Position numbers and translations under genes: made by a program
Source of the DNA: a virus
Length of the DNA stretch: 64,000 nucleotides
Virus record (IMG/VR): IMGVR_UViG_3300010412_000009
Location: 5,770-69,769 of that record
Direction: 5' to 3' (one strand)
Shown here: piece after piece, positions 12,990 to 60,648 of the stretch
Layout of the letters: each line of letters starts with the position of its first letter
How positions within the stretch are numbered: the stretch's first letter is position 1
The notes under the pieces: model-generated
Told to the model about the DNA's origin: nothing
The model's input: only the letters and a program-made list of their open reading frames with translations
Database searches by the model: none

Positions 12990-13848
12990 AATCCCAAAGA
13001 CTATAATATCGTCTTAACTTATTGTTATGGTTATATAAATTATCCCCCTCATACTCGTAGTTTGAATATCCCAAACTTTCAATCATTCTTCTACCCAATT
13101 CAACCCCATTGAAAGTATCCTTTACTACTACATATTCATCTCTTCTGTGCATATTATAATATCCTATTGATATATTAATACACGAAAAATTGAATAGTTT
13201 TTTTAATGAATAAACGTCAGTATATGGATGTCTCATATATTCAAGATGATTTCCAACACCCTCTTTCAATATTTGATCGCATGTTTTGAAGAAATCCGAA
13301 TTCCTATCAAATAATACCTCACCAAAACACACTTCAGTAACCATGTAATCTTCTGGTGCGTCAAATTGTATTGCATATCCGACATTCTTAAAAAAGGACG
13401 GATCGGCATTTTTAGAACCAATACAACCTACTTCCTCAGACACAAAAAACGCCGCCTTCAAATAGGGTAATTCCTTTAGTAGTGTGAGACATGCGAATAC
13501 ACCACACTTATCATCACCACCAATACCTACAGGATATCCTGCATCGTTATACGCCTTCAAGGATAGTGATAAATTACCTTGAGAATCTTTAAGAGTTTCC
13601 TCTCTTACGTTAATAGTGTCGATGTGATGTACGGTATCCGTATGCGACACAACACAAGGGTAATACTCAGGCTCATTGTCATCTATTTTTTTTGTTGCAT
13701 AAACATTCAAATAAGTATCGACATAATATTCAATATTATTATCTTTAAGCCATTGAGTAATATACTCAACCATTCGATGTTCTTCAAATGTTTTTGTGGG
13801 TATTGATAATACCTCTTTCAGGAAATCTAAATCATACATACTATTCAT
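12988..13848 (-). CDS. M20/M28-family metallopeptidase
   Basis: SHTDTV, GGDDKCG, SEEVG and late His metal-ligand motifs. Confidence 0.8.
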   Translation of the reverse strand: MNSMYDLDFLKEVLSIPTKTFEEHRMVEYITQWLKDNNIEYYVDTYLNVYATKKIDDNEPEYYPCVVSHTDTVHHIDTINVREETLKDSQGNLSLSLKAYNDAGYPVGIGGDDKCGVFACLTLLKELPYLKAAFFVSEEVGCIGSKNADPSFFKNVGYAIQFDAPEDYMVTEVCFGEVLFDRNSDFFKTCDQILKEGVGNHLEYMRHPYTDVYSLKKLFNFSCINISIGYYNMHRRDEYVVVKDTFNGVELGRRMIESLGYSNYEYEGDNLYNHNNKLRRYYSLWD

Positions 13849-45999: not shown

Positions 46000-46090
46000 T
46001 TCCCCCGGTGAGACTCGAACTCACATCCAATACGTTAAAAGCGTATGGCTTGTTCCCTTTCGGTACTAATTCCAATTCAGCTACGGAGGA
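46000..46090 (-). tRNA. tRNA-Lys(TTT) with enlarged D-loop (91 nt)
   Basis: acceptor TCCTCCG/CGGGGGA, anticodon ATACG-CTTTTAA-CGTAT, normal T arm; 28 nt between D-stem strands including CC-GAAA-GG. Confidence 0.8.
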
Positions 46091-54933: not shown

Positions 54934-54963
54934 ATTTATTTTGTGTTTTAATAAAAAAAATTG

Positions 54964-55037
54964 TTCCCCCGCTGGGGCTCGAACCCAGGACCCCCACTTT
55001 AAAAGAGTGGTGCATCTACCAACTGAGCTACGGAGGA
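54964..55037 (-). tRNA. tRNA-Lys(TTT), canonical size
   Basis: cloverleaf, loop CT-TTT-AA; same acceptor stem as 46000..46090. Confidence 0.9.
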
Positions 55038-56505: not shown

Positions 56506-57396
56506 CTATTTTTTTCTCCTTTTTAACACTTCGTCTCTAGAGACAAGAAAACTTAATTTAGGATTTGGATTATCCTCAGAATAAGGTAACACATTCTCCA
56601 ATCGTCTTTCACAAAGATTAACATATTCTTCATTAATATCAATTCCAATATAATGTCTTTTATTCATCTTTGCCATTTTTAGAGTTGTCCCGCTACCTGC
56701 CATCGGATCCAAAACAACGTCACCTACATCCGACCAACTTAAAATATGATCTTCAGCCAAACTTTCAGGAAATATTGCGGGATGTTGATGAGCATAATCA
56801 TCTTTGGATGAAAATCCTTTGCCGTTATTAATATACCACACATTATATCTTGTACCATATTCACCAACCACGAACTTATCTGATTTCTTCAAATCACCAT
56901 CTTTTGTTCTTGCAGATGGTGTCCCAAAATTAGTATGTCCAGCCCATCTATTTGGTTTATCTTTTAAAAGGTTAACAGTCTTTGGCTTTCCTTTGGAAAA
57001 GACAAACATGTACTCAAATACTTGAGAATATCTACCAACCTCAGGAAATGGAGCACCATTTTTATGATATATCATTGTATCATATAATGTGAATCCAATC
57101 TCCATAAACTTAAGTGCTTGTTTAAAAGAACTCCCCGTCTCACCTCCGTTCTTAACCTGGTCATTTACCACCCAAACAACAACACCACCATTTTTTGTGA
57201 CTCGATATAACTCACGAGCCATTTCTACAAATGGAAAACTGAAACCATCTTCATAGACAATCTCATCTTTAATCTTACCATTATAACTTCTTAAATTATC
57301 ATATGGCGGTGATGTTACTGTTAAGTCAATAACATTATCATCGAAAGTCTTTAATACCTTTACGGCATCCCCTAAATATGTTTTGTTGTATTTCAT
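56506..57396 (-). CDS. DNA N4-cytosine/N6-adenine methyltransferase (beta class)
   Basis: TSPPY, HPA.FP, VLDPM.GSGTT; start chosen at MKYNK. Confidence 0.9.
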   Translation of the reverse strand: MKYNKTYLGDAVKVLKTFDDNVIDLTVTSPPYDNLRSYNGKIKDEIVYEDGFSFPFVEMARELYRVTKNGGVVVWVVNDQVKNGGETGSSFKQALKFMEIGFTLYDTMIYHKNGAPFPEVGRYSQVFEYMFVFSKGKPKTVNLLKDKPNRWAGHTNFGTPSARTKDGDLKKSDKFVVGEYGTRYNVWYINNGKGFSSKDDYAHQHPAIFPESLAEDHILSWSDVGDVVLDPMAGSGTTLKMAKMNKRHYIGIDINEEYVNLCERRLENVLPYSEDNPNPKLSFLVSRDEVLKRRKK

Positions 57397-57411
57397 GTTA
57401 TATATTATATA

Positions 57412-57600
57412 AAAAAAATGGGGTCGGGACAAGGCATCCCGAACACCCTTCTTTCTATCATTTGTAGTTTCTATTTTACGTCTAAAAACACGTTAGGTAA
57501 CAAAAGAGACGCTTCACATTCGGTGTTGCCCGTCCAAAATCGCCATTGTCTTTTAAGTTTTAGACTAAACTATGTTGTCTTCATTTGGCAGAACCCCAAT
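57412..57600 (-). ncRNA. candidate ~185-nt structured RNA ending in a terminator-like hairpin
   Basis: TGGGGT/ACCCCA ends, TAGTTT/AAACTA and GTCTAAAA/TTTTAGAC helices, TCGGGA/TCCCGA hairpin then T-run. Confidence 0.4.
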
Positions 57601-57613
57601 CAAAAAATCACCT

Positions 57614-57695
57614 TGGTTGCGTTTGGAAGATTCGAACTTCCCCCGGATCCGTCGATCAACACGGCTCATGAGACCGTCAGTACACCATTAACGCA
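57614..57695 (-). tRNA. atypical tRNA-like RNA, CAT anticodon, no D-stem, long variable region, encoded CCA
   Basis: TGCGTT/AACGCA acceptor, ACGGT-CTCATGA-GCCGT, T arm GGAAG-TTCGAAT-CTTCC, ACCA end. Confidence 0.7.
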
Positions 57696-57795
57696 TGATA
57701 CTTCTGTTCATTTAAATAGCGATTGGAAGAGTACCCACTCAATTACTGCCATCAGACAAACCAACCCCTCTTACGGAAAAACTATTTTTTATTAG

Positions 57796-57937
57796 TGGTG
57801 TAATTAGGACTCGAACCTAAATTTTCCTCGGACATGCACCGAGACGATGTAGATTATCCTCAAGTAATAACTTTAGTGGAACGTTACTCACCTATAACTT
57901 ACTCTCATAGGACAATACCCAATTCATCTTTTACACC
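57796..57937 (-). tRNA. 142-nt tRNA-like RNA with a 75-nt structured D-loop
   Basis: acceptor GGTGTAA/TTACACC, D-stem GATG/CATC, CTCGG-TGCATGT-CCGAG, T arm TTAGG-TTCGAGT-CCTAA. Confidence 0.75.
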
Positions 57938-57950
57938 ATAAGTTAATTAG

Positions 57951-58037
57951 TGGCGAGAGGGAGATTCGAACTCCCACACCTTTCGGTTCTTGGGTTATGA
58001 GCCCAAGGAGGCATCGCCAGCAGCCTTCATTCTCGCA
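57951..58037 (-). tRNA. initiator-like tRNA-Met(CAT) with long variable arm
   Basis: 1:72 T/C mismatch, anticodon stem CTTGGG/CCCAAG with three G-C pairs, variable hairpin ACC-GAAA-GGT. Confidence 0.75.
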
Positions 58038-58045
58038 ATTTATTG

Positions 58046-58117
58046 ATCCTCTGTGGAGAATCGAACTCCATTATCCGGTTTACAAGACCGGCGCATCACC
58101 TTTTATGCTTCAGAGGA
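58046..58117 (-). tRNA. tRNA-Thr(TGT)
   Basis: cloverleaf, loop CT-TGT-AA. Confidence 0.85.
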
Positions 58118-58415
58118 AGATAATTCCTTGTTATTTAGTTTAAAACAAACTACCTATCAAACTACCTAACAAATATAAGAAAGGATAGAATAATAAACAA
58201 GCAATAGCAATTATTTTTTTATATTTTTCCATCCTTATAAATACATAGGAATTACCAAGGAATTCCTTTTTTCTTTGAAGTTTCATGCAATAGTTGTTTA
58301 ACCATCTTTTTTGCCAAGGTATTTAGTTTTTGTCCTTCAACAACTTCACCTTGTTTGAATGCTCGTTCAACAACAAGTTCATTCTTTTCATTAAAATACT
58401 CAACTTCGTGTGATT

Positions 58416-60547: not shown

Positions 60548-60648
60548 AAACCCCCCACCTGCCAACCAAGGAATACGCCGCGCAACGTACGTCTGTCCAA
60601 ACTGCACAATATGACAGAACTTAGGATTCGAACCTAACGGTGGAGTTT
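60548..60648 (-). ncRNA. circularly permuted tRNA-like RNA (YrlA/Y RNA-like)
   Basis: order: closing strand AAACTCCACC, T arm TTAGG-TTCGAAT-CCTAA, looped stem TCTGTC/GACAGA, hairpin TACGT/GCGTA, closing strand GGTGGGGGGTTT. Confidence 0.6.

What the first reader, a model, noticed from the sequence alone, without database searches (positions are those of the whole stretch)
57796..57937. tRNA-like RNA with a ~65-nt structured insertion in the D-loop
Seen: perfect 7-bp acceptor, D-stem, anticodon arm and T arm, but 75 nt (57850-57924) lie between the D-stem strands. The loop starts like a normal D-loop (AATTGG) and then folds on itself (ATTGTCCT/AGGATAAT, alternative CCTATGA/TTATAGG, inner TAAC/GTTA). 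The anticodon loop is TGCATGT (central CAT, G instead of U33). Known: D-loops are normally about 8-11 nt, and bacterial tRNA introns are typically self-splicing group I/II introns, far longer than this. Inference: either a protein-spliced D-loop intron (the phage encodes two RNA ligases, a kinase and phosphatases) or a tRNA scaffold carrying an extra domain, for example a decoy or aptamer. Intact pairing everywhere argues against simple decay.
Basis: partly seen in the sequence, partly recalled or inferred. Interest (0 to 1): 0.85.

Follow-up and report, generated by a model that had tools for sequence, protein, structure and literature searches.

The report
Phage tRNA-like gene with giant D-arm
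A huge T4-like phage carries a gene shaped like a methionine tRNA that has about 66 extra bases in its D-loop and an odd anticodon loop; it is most likely kept as an extra arm on a tRNA mimic, but it has no distant relatives and no expression data.

Summary
On the minus strand (57937 to 57796) lies a 142-nt RNA gene. It has a perfect 7-bp acceptor stem, a 4-bp D-stem, a 6-bp anticodon stem with loop UGCAUGU, a 5-nt variable loop and a canonical T arm. The D-loop is 75 nt. ARAGORN and Rfam miss the gene. With the insertion removed in silico, ARAGORN calls tRNA-Met(CAU).

The extra ~66 nt follow G18G19(G20) and precede A21. Two other phage tRNAs carry small GAAA hairpins at the same site: Lys-UUU in this window and Gly-UCC in a related phage. 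A ~95% identical variant from another study keeps the insertion.

I found no BHB motif, no group I or ribozyme match, no splicing endonuclease and no RtcB. No more distant homologue turned up in any search. The insertion's own fold is not significantly stable (z -1.4). The gene changes faster than its canonical neighbours.

Best reading (0.4): an unspliced five-arm tRNA-derived RNA, processed like a tRNA but not a normal decoder (G33, G37). Its layout resembles T4 RNA C, whose function is unknown. Rivals are a decaying gene, a working tRNA and an intron.

Earlier unchecked notes of this scan report D-loop hairpin tRNAs on other DNA.

The parts
57931..57937 (-). Acceptor stem, 5' strand (GGUGUAA)
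   Evidence: Pairs 7 of 7 Watson-Crick with 57797-57803.
57925..57928 (-). D-stem, 5' strand (GAUG), preceded by A8 A9 (57929-57930)
   Evidence: Pairs 4 of 4 with 57846-57849 at the canonical offsets.
57918..57924 (-). Normal start of the D-loop (AAUUGGG, includes G18 G19)
   Evidence: Read from the sequence. The Lys tRNA at 46000-46090 has the same AAUUGG start.
57852..57917 (-). About 66 extra nucleotides inside the D-loop, folding as an imperfect AU-rich rod. The exact boundaries are not defined.
   Evidence: Fold; alone z -1.40. Single copy. Kept in the variant contig of run X14, with 5 transitions.
57846..57851 (-). End of the D-loop (U, A21) and D-stem 3' strand (CAUC)
57826..57844 (-). 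Anticodon arm: 6-bp stem UCUCGG/CCGAGG and loop UGCAUGU (CAU at 57834-57836)
   Evidence: G33 occurs in 2 of 190 neighbouring and related phage tRNAs, and all 14 CAU tRNAs there have A37.
57821..57825 (-). Variable loop AAAAU (5 nt)
57804..57820 (-). T arm UUAGG-UUCGAGU-CCUAA
   Evidence: a T arm lying in no ARAGORN gene.
57796..57803 (-). Acceptor stem 3' strand (UUACACC) and discriminator A; no CCA encoded
   Evidence: In the X14 variant C72 is U, giving G1-U72.
57424..57442 (-). Terminator-like hairpin with a T-run, closing the non-coding tRNA/ncRNA block 58117-57433
   Evidence: There is no minus-strand ORF of 50 aa or more in 57433-58251.

Best explanation
This is a real minus-strand gene derived from a CAU (Met-type) tRNA. 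It lies in the polycistronic tRNA array of a huge T4-like phage.

Inferred mechanism. The RNA is cut out like its neighbours, because the 12-bp acceptor/T-arm helix, the T-loop, G18G19 and A21 are all intact. That implies RNase P at the 5' end and trimming plus CCA addition at the 3' end. The roughly 66 extra nucleotides are not removed. They stay as a fifth arm that leaves the D-loop at its exposed variable pocket (position 20) and points away from the elbow.

The anticodon loop has G33 and G37 on a 6-bp stem, so the RNA is probably not an ordinary decoder. I think it acts as a tRNA mimic: it shows a CAU-tRNA-like body to some protein that binds Met, fMet or Ile2 tRNAs. Candidates are a host tRNA-targeting defence nuclease, a synthetase or a modification enzyme.

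Shown: the anatomy, the insertion site, its recurrence at that site, and its persistence in one strain variant. Inferred: expression, processing, retention of the arm, and the mimic role.
For: - Cloverleaf anatomy and chance controls.
- With the insertion removed in silico, ARAGORN (threshold lowered with -ps95) calls tRNA-Met(CAU). One example keeps RNA 1-20 and resumes at 87.
- The insertion follows G18G19 and precedes A21. The same site carries a CC-GAAA-GG hairpin in the 91-nt tRNA-Lys(UUU) at 46000-46090. It also carries a GGC-GAAA-GCC hairpin in an 83-nt tRNA-Gly(UCC) of a related phage, L123:16515-16597, which scores 52.5 bits on Rfam tRNA.
- These are the 3 tRNA-like genes with D-loops over 12 nt that I judged genuine among the 14 hits of my scan of the window and 13 tRNA-block loci. 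All 3 are enlarged at this one site.
- A contig from another study (run X14) keeps the insertion. Of 5 changes at paired positions, 4 keep the pair and 1 breaks it.
- The gene sits 14 nt behind the preceding tRNA in a non-coding block that ends in a terminator-like hairpin.
- The anticodon loop is unusual. Of 190 ARAGORN tRNAs in these loci, 185 have U33 and 2 have G33, and all 14 CAU tRNAs have A37.
- There is a precedent for the layout. T4 RNA C (139 nt, in the T4 tRNA cluster) folds with an acceptor-like stem, a ~65-nt arm in the D position, an anticodon-position arm and a canonical T arm. In T4, Moon and Kosakonia phage 305, 16 of its 47 pairs covary.
- The phage carries T4 Rnl1-type and second-type RNA ligases, which fits a conflict over tRNAs.
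Against: - No homologue beyond a ~95% identical variant was found in any search.
- There are no expression data.
- The insertion alone does not fold better than shuffled sequence (z -1.40).
- 4 of 5 pairs kept is close to what transitions give by chance, about one half.
- In the X14 variant the gene has 7 changes in 142 nt. The two tRNA genes just upstream have 0 in 158 nt. By my own arithmetic the one-sided chance of that split is about 0.005. Sequence constraint is therefore weaker than on working tRNAs.
- In the minimum-energy fold G18 and G19 pair inside the rod, which would undo the elbow.
- No partner protein is identified, so the mimic role is inference only.
- T4 RNA C shows no sequence or model similarity to this gene.
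Confidence: 0.4

Rival explanations
1. Disabled gene. A once-normal CAU tRNA gene took a 66-nt insertion of junk DNA and is now drifting. It may still be transcribed with the array, but it does nothing.
For: - 7 changes in 142 nt against 0 in 158 nt in the two upstream tRNAs of the X14 variant.
- The insertion fold is not significant.
- G33 and G37 are non-canonical.
- No homologue in related phages.
- tRNA arrays of related phages do hold broken or interrupted tRNA-like pieces.
- An orphan T arm lies at 60621-60637.
Against: - All 22 pairs of the four tRNA arms are intact, and so are the T-loop, G18G19, A21, G26 and the 5-nt variable loop.
- Neither of the 2 changes in the tRNA body in the variant breaks a pair.
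- The insertion lies at the one D-loop site where two otherwise canonical tRNAs also carry hairpins. Random disruption does not predict that.
Confidence: 0.25
2. Working five-arm tRNA. The RNA is charged, most likely with methionine through its CAU anticodon and A73, and it decodes on the ribosome with the extra arm in place. The odd loop would then be an escape from anticodon nucleases.
For: - The tRNA core is intact.
- The small-hairpin versions (Lys UUU, Gly UCC) have fully canonical anticodon loops and look functional.
- Phage tRNAs are reported to carry anticodon-loop changes that resist host nucleases. I saw only the title and abstract listing of PMC10264068; my term search in that paper found no mention of position 33.
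Against: - U33 is present in 185 of 190 tRNAs of these phages, and A37 in 14 of 14 CAU tRNAs. This RNA has G at both positions, plus a sixth stem pair.
- Its sequence constraint is weaker than that of neighbouring tRNAs.
Confidence: 0.15
3. Intervening sequence. The ~66 nt are cut out and the halves are joined, possibly by the phage RNA ligases, to give a 76-nt tRNA. Alternatively the rod is cleaved, for example by RNase III, leaving a two-piece tRNA.
For: - Removing the insertion gives a sequence that ARAGORN accepts as tRNA-Met.
- The phage encodes two RNA ligases.
- The rod has about 27 interrupted base pairs.
Against: - There is no bulge-helix-bulge: the 3' strand has no bulge next to the D-stem. 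A cut in the only 3-nt bulge (A14-U16) would remove G18G19.
- No group I intron or ribozyme family matches at E<=10, and 66 nt is far below group I size.
- No PF01974 endonuclease and no RtcB in the record, which is 21% complete, so this point is weak.
- The spliced product would still have G33 and G37.
- The 10-17 nt hairpins at the same site in other tRNAs are better read as permanent arms.
- From my own knowledge, no protein-spliced tRNA intron is known in bacteria or their phages.
Confidence: 0.1
4. Chance. A real 3' tRNA fragment happens to find complementary 7-mer and 4-mer partners upstream.
For: 152 of 2000 random 400-mers contain an acceptor partner alone.
Against: - Only 4 of 2000 random 400-mers also give the D-stem at the right offset.
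- The AAUUGG start and the A21 end of the loop add to this.
- The variant keeps the whole arrangement.
Confidence: 0.01

Closest known systems
Bacteriophage T4 RNA C (species 1 RNA, rnaC), a 139-nt stable RNA of the T4 tRNA cluster
   Same: - It is encoded inside the tRNA array of a T4-type myovirus and has nearly the same size (139 against 142 nt).
- It has four arms in tRNA order: an acceptor-like stem, a ~65-nt arm in the D position, an anticodon-position hairpin and a canonical GGUUCGAAUCC T arm.
- Its function is unknown (passages read in PMC3014915 and PMC9697503).
- It has no Rfam family.
   Different: - There is no sequence or covariance-model similarity: model R1 does not hit rnaC.
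- RNA C has a mismatched acceptor stem, a 10-bp anticodon-position stem with a 6-nt loop, a 10-nt spacer before that stem and no recognisable D-loop start.
- The window RNA keeps a canonical D-stem, the AAUUGG start, A21, a 7-nt CAU loop and a 5-nt variable loop.
- RNA C is held in 740 phage records. The window RNA was found only in its own lineage.
Phage tRNAs with a GAAA mini-hairpin in the D-loop (window 46000-46090, Lys UUU; L123:16515-16597, Gly UCC)
   Same: The insertion site is the same, after G18G19 and before A21. They come from the same phage group and sit in the same kind of tRNA array.
   Different: Their inserts are 10-17 nt with a GNRA loop, and their anticodon loops are canonical (CUUUUAA, CUUCCAA). 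The finding has 66 nt, no GNRA cap and a non-canonical loop.
Archaeal and some eukaryotic tRNA introns at non-canonical positions, including the D-loop (bulge-helix-bulge, cut by EndA-type endonuclease). Recalled from my own knowledge.
   Same: A short intervening sequence inside the D-loop of an otherwise normal tRNA gene.
   Different: There is no BHB geometry here and no EndA family match. The phage carries a tmRNA gene; tmRNA is, from my own knowledge, a bacterial RNA, so a bacterial host is inferred, not shown.
Class II tRNAs and allo-tRNAs, which carry an extra arm in the variable region
   Same: A tRNA that tolerates an additional helical arm. The review of non-canonical natural tRNAs is PMC7609411; I saw 12 of 22 matching passages.
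   Different: Their arm is at the variable region, not in the D-loop. None of the passages I read in that review describes a hairpin inside the D-loop.

Membership tests
Canonical tRNA (Rfam RF00005) | 7-bp acceptor stem, 5-bp T stem, T-loop UUCRANY, G53-C61 | tested here: met
Canonical tRNA (Rfam RF00005) | D-loop of about 7-11 nt containing G18G19 | tested here: not met
   The D-loop is 75 nt. G18G19 and A21 are present.
Canonical tRNA (Rfam RF00005) | 5-bp anticodon stem, 7-nt loop with U33 and a purine 37 suited to the codon (A37 for ANN codons) | tested here: not met
   The stem has 6 bp and the loop is UGCAUGU, with G33 and G37. Comparison set: U33 in 185 of 190 tRNAs and A37 in 14 of 14 CAU tRNAs.
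Canonical tRNA (Rfam RF00005) | Score at or above the family's gathering score (29 bits), or a call by ARAGORN | tested here: not met
   No match even at E<=10. ARAGORN makes no call. It calls tRNA-Met(CAU) only after in-silico removal of the insertion, at a lowered threshold.
tRNA with bulge-helix-bulge intron (archaeal type) | Two 3-nt bulges on opposite strands, separated by a 4-bp helix, at the exon-intron borders | tested here: not met
   Only one 3-nt bulge (A14-U16) exists. The 3' strand runs from the rod into the D-stem without a bulge.
tRNA with bulge-helix-bulge intron (archaeal type) | EndA-type splicing endonuclease (PF01974) and an RtcB-type ligase available | tested here: inconclusive
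   Neither was found in the record. The record is only 21% complete and the host is unknown.
Group I intron in a tRNA gene | Intron of roughly 200 nt or more with a P3-P9 core, placed in the anticodon loop, matching RF00028 | tested here: not met
   The insert is 66 nt and lies in the D-loop. No Rfam match at E<=10.
T4 RNA C (rnaC) family | Sequence or covariance-model homology to T4 rnaC | tested here: not met
   Model R1 does not match rnaC in L084. A blastn search with window 57400-58200 against the phage collection found nothing.
T4 RNA C (rnaC) family | Four-arm tRNA-like layout with a long arm in the D position, encoded within a tRNA array | tested here: met
   This is a likeness of design only.
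tRNA pseudogene | Loss of stem pairing or of conserved core residues, and neutral evolution | tested here: inconclusive
   All arm pairs are intact. However, the substitution density is higher than in neighbouring tRNAs, 7 in 142 against 0 in 158.

The most novel reading that the evidence does not exclude
The 66 nt form a true intervening sequence in the D-loop of a bacterial-virus tRNA. Proteins would remove it, by an unknown endonuclease or RNase III-type cuts followed by sealing with the phage's own RNA ligases, or they would leave a functional two-piece tRNA. That would be the first tRNA intron in the bacterial world that is not a group I intron.
Probability: 0.08. Interest if true: 0.85.

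Novelty: new variant of a known kind. Interest (0 to 1): 0.5.

Why it matters
Phage tRNA arrays are now read as part of an arms race with host enzymes that cut or modify tRNAs. A tRNA-shaped RNA that keeps every feature needed for processing, but carries a large extra arm and a disabled anticodon loop, would be a candidate decoy or regulator in that conflict. It might also shed light on T4 RNA C, whose role is still listed as unknown in the 2010 and 2022 papers I read.

The finding also shows that standard tRNA finders miss such genes. In addition, the D-loop pocket after G18G19 appears to be a recurrent place where phage tRNAs grow extra helices. I found no description of that design in the papers I could search.

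Tried and rejected
**Homologue searches that found nothing useful**
- blastn of 57400-58200 against the phage collection: no match.
- Exact-pattern scans of viral contigs:
  - anticodon arm: 0 hits;
  - loop plus T-loop: 2 hits, both GC-rich DNA without any tRNA features;
  - T arm plus acceptor: 0 hits;
  - 5' acceptor plus D-arm start: 10 hits, none followed by tRNA features.
- Exact-pattern scans of metagenome contigs: 0 and 0 hits.
- Covariance model R1 of the gene:
  - 0 of 20 records of portal relatives matched at E<=1;
  - 0 matches in 29 methylase loci, 285,561 bases;
  - 29 matches in 14 tRNA-block loci, all 69-91 nt ordinary tRNAs with the insertion skipped.
- Neighbour proteins as anchors:
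  - the 378-aa protein has no relative;
  - the methylase has thousands of relatives, but only 2 of its 29 loci scanned hold any tRNA gene and none holds this gene.
- The insertion is not a repeat: only self matches. A 19-nt match in L125 is coding DNA.
- No close paralogue of the tRNA body in the window; the best is about 70% identity to tRNA-Gly.

**Sequencing runs**
- No RNA holder is listed among the 20 runs, so nothing can be said on expression.
- Runs X4, X5 and X16 gave no cover of the gene at 80% likeness. This is a blank, not a finding.

**Literature**
I found no description of hairpin insertions in phage tRNA D-loops. Searches were. Passages were read. I did not request the supplementary files of these papers; they may bear on this.

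**Ideas considered and dropped**
- The plus-strand ORF 57418-57795 (125 aa) is an antisense artefact of the tRNA-like genes (its translation contains the stretch GRFELPP). It also ends just outside the finding.
- No promoter-like site lies inside the insertion on the minus strand.
- A8 as a sign of decay: dropped, because 9 of 190 phage tRNAs here have A8, including the neighbouring tRNA-Thr.

Full report
**What is there**

All 18 tRNA genes that ARAGORN finds in the window lie on the minus strand, and so does this element. Read from 57937 down to 57796, the 142-nt RNA has these parts:
- acceptor stem GGUGUAA/UUACACC, 7 Watson-Crick pairs;
- A8 A9;
- D-stem GAUG/CAUC;
- a 75-nt D-loop that begins AAUUGGG and ends UCUA;
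- G26;
- a 6-bp anticodon stem UCUCGG/CCGAGG with the 7-nt loop UGCAUGU;
- a 5-nt variable loop AAAAU;
- T arm UUAGG-UUCGAGU-CCUAA;
- discriminator A, with no encoded CCA.

The minimum-energy fold gives exactly this cloverleaf (-38.2 kcal/mol, z -2.89, 1 of 200 shuffles as good).

The 5' partners are unlikely to arise by chance. 152 of 2000 random 400-mers hold an acceptor partner, but only 4 of 2000 also hold a D-stem partner at the right offset. In both strands of the real window only the true site is all Watson-Crick.

ARAGORN and Rfam do not report the gene. When the insertion is removed inside a script, ARAGORN at a lowered threshold calls tRNA-Met(CAU).

One qualification applies. The 75 nt alone fold no better than shuffled sequence (z -1.40, 16 of 200 shuffles as good). 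"Structured insertion" is therefore not established.

**Setting**

The window is part of a 69.8-kb virus record judged 21% complete. It encodes:
- a T4-type portal and large terminase, a ClpB-like ATPase and a ribonucleotide reductase;
- a tmRNA;
- two RNA ligases, one of T4 Rnl1 type.

The gene sits in a non-coding minus-strand block (58117-57433). It lies 14 nt behind an 85-nt CAU tRNA and one gene further behind tRNA-Thr. The block ends in a terminator-like hairpin at 57442-57424. This is the layout of a polycistronic tRNA array.

**Where the extra bases sit**

The loop keeps the usual start (A14, A15, U, U, G18, G19) and the usual end (A21). The extra ~66 nt lie between them, in the D-loop's variable pocket.

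I scanned the window and 13 tRNA-block loci of related phages for tRNA-like genes with D-loops over 12 nt. The scan gave 14 hits, of which I judged three genuine:
- this gene;
- a 91-nt tRNA-Lys(UUU) at 46000-46090, with a CC-GAAA-GG hairpin after AAUUGG;
- an 83-nt tRNA-Gly(UCC) in another huge phage (L123:16515-16597), with a GGC-GAAA-GCC hairpin after AACGG. It scores 52.5 bits on Rfam tRNA.

All three are enlarged at the same site. The two small ones have fully canonical anticodon loops. That pattern fits a structurally permitted site for a permanent extra arm better than random damage.

**Conservation**

A 796-nt contig from a run of a different study (X14) covers the gene and keeps the insertion. 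It differs by 7 transitions in 142 nt, 5 of them in the insertion. Of the 5 changes at paired positions of the minimum-energy fold, 4 keep the pair through G-U and 1 breaks it. In the tRNA body the changes are C72 to U (giving G1-U72) and one base of the variable loop.

This is weak evidence, because about half of all transitions keep a pair by chance. Against constraint, the two tRNA genes just upstream show 0 changes in 158 nt in the same contigs. By my own arithmetic the one-sided chance of that split is about 0.005.

Nothing more distant was found.

**Intron or arm?**

I found no support for splicing.
- There is no bulge-helix-bulge. The only 3-nt bulge is A14-U16, and a cut there would remove G18G19.
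- No intron or ribozyme family matches at E<=10.
- No PF01974 endonuclease and no RtcB is in the record, though the record is incomplete.
- The RNA ligases are the usual T4-type repair enzymes.
- Even after excision the product would keep an abnormal loop.

**Can it decode?**

Among 190 ARAGORN tRNAs of the window and related tRNA blocks, 185 have U33 and 2 have G33. All 14 CAU tRNAs have A37. This RNA has G33 and G37 and a sixth stem pair. A8 is less telling, since 9 of the 190 have it. I therefore think ordinary decoding is unlikely.

**Closest known**

T4 RNA C (139 nt) lies in the T4 tRNA cluster. Its fold is:
- an acceptor-like stem;
- a ~65-nt arm in the D position;
- an anticodon-position hairpin;
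- a canonical T arm.

The single-sequence fold has z -4.57. In T4, Moon and Kosakonia phage 305, 16 of its 47 pairs covary. RNA C is held in 740 phage records and has no Rfam family. Two papers state that its role is unknown (passages in PMC3014915 and PMC9697503).

The window RNA has the same design and setting but no detectable homology to RNA C. It is also much closer to a true tRNA.

**Verdict**

This is a real and unusual tRNA-derived gene.
- Most likely (0.4): it is made and trimmed like a tRNA, keeps the extra arm, and serves as a mimic of CAU tRNAs rather than as a decoder.
- A drifting disabled gene (0.25), a working five-arm tRNA (0.15) and an intervening sequence (0.1) remain open.
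- RNA data would settle the matter.

Earlier unchecked notes of this scan describe D-loop hairpin tRNAs in other phages and bacteria. I found no paper on the design.

Noticed in passing
window 46000-46090 (-): A 91-nt tRNA-Lys(UUU) with about 17 extra nt, including CC-GAAA-GG, after AAUUGG of the D-loop. ARAGORN and Rfam miss it. A normal tRNA-Lys(UUU) with the same acceptor stem lies at 54963-55037.
   Followed up: partly
window 57952-58036 (-): An 85-nt CAU tRNA with an initiator-like anticodon arm (UUGGG-CUCAUAA-CCCAA), an ACC-GAAA-GGU variable arm and an imperfect seventh acceptor pair. Its only Rfam match is tRNA-Sec at 31 bits, below the 47-bit cut-off.
   Followed up: partly
window 57617-57695 (-): A 79-nt tRNA-like RNA with loop CUCAUGA (CAU, G37), a long variable region and a weak D-arm; Rfam tRNA scores 18 bits. 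The X14 variant contig has 195 extra letters right at its 5' end.
   Followed up: no
window 60621-60637 (-): An orphan T arm (UUAGG-UUCGAAU-CCUAA) just behind tRNA-Ser, with no acceptor, D or anticodon arm of its own. Its T stem equals that of the finding.
   Followed up: no
L123:16515-16597 (+): An 83-nt tRNA-Gly(UCC) of a related huge phage with a GGC-GAAA-GCC hairpin inside the D-loop after G18G19. Rfam tRNA scores 52.5 bits; ARAGORN misses it.
   Followed up: partly
L129:4347-4576 (+) and L123:5456-5657 (+): A 230-nt tRNA-like RNA with a normal acceptor stem, D-arm and T arm but about 150 nt between a hairpin with an 8-nt loop and the T arm; no Rfam family matches. In another phage the same acceptor strands and T arm enclose a terminator-like hairpin and a whole tRNA-Ser(GCU).
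   Followed up: partly
L121:13232-13328 and 13536-13637 (+): Two tRNA-like genes of 97 and 102 nt share the acceptor AGUCAGG/CCUGACU and a canonical T arm but have no clear anticodon arm. ARAGORN misses both.
   Followed up: no
L084:2909-3047 (-) (phage T4 rnaC): T4 RNA C has a covarying four-arm tRNA-like fold and is present in 740 phage records, yet it has no Rfam family.
   Followed up: partly
window 56506-57432 (-): The listed TTG start of the DNA methylase overlaps the terminator-like hairpin, and relatives align only from residue 16 on. The true start is probably the ATG about 12 codons downstream.
   Followed up: no
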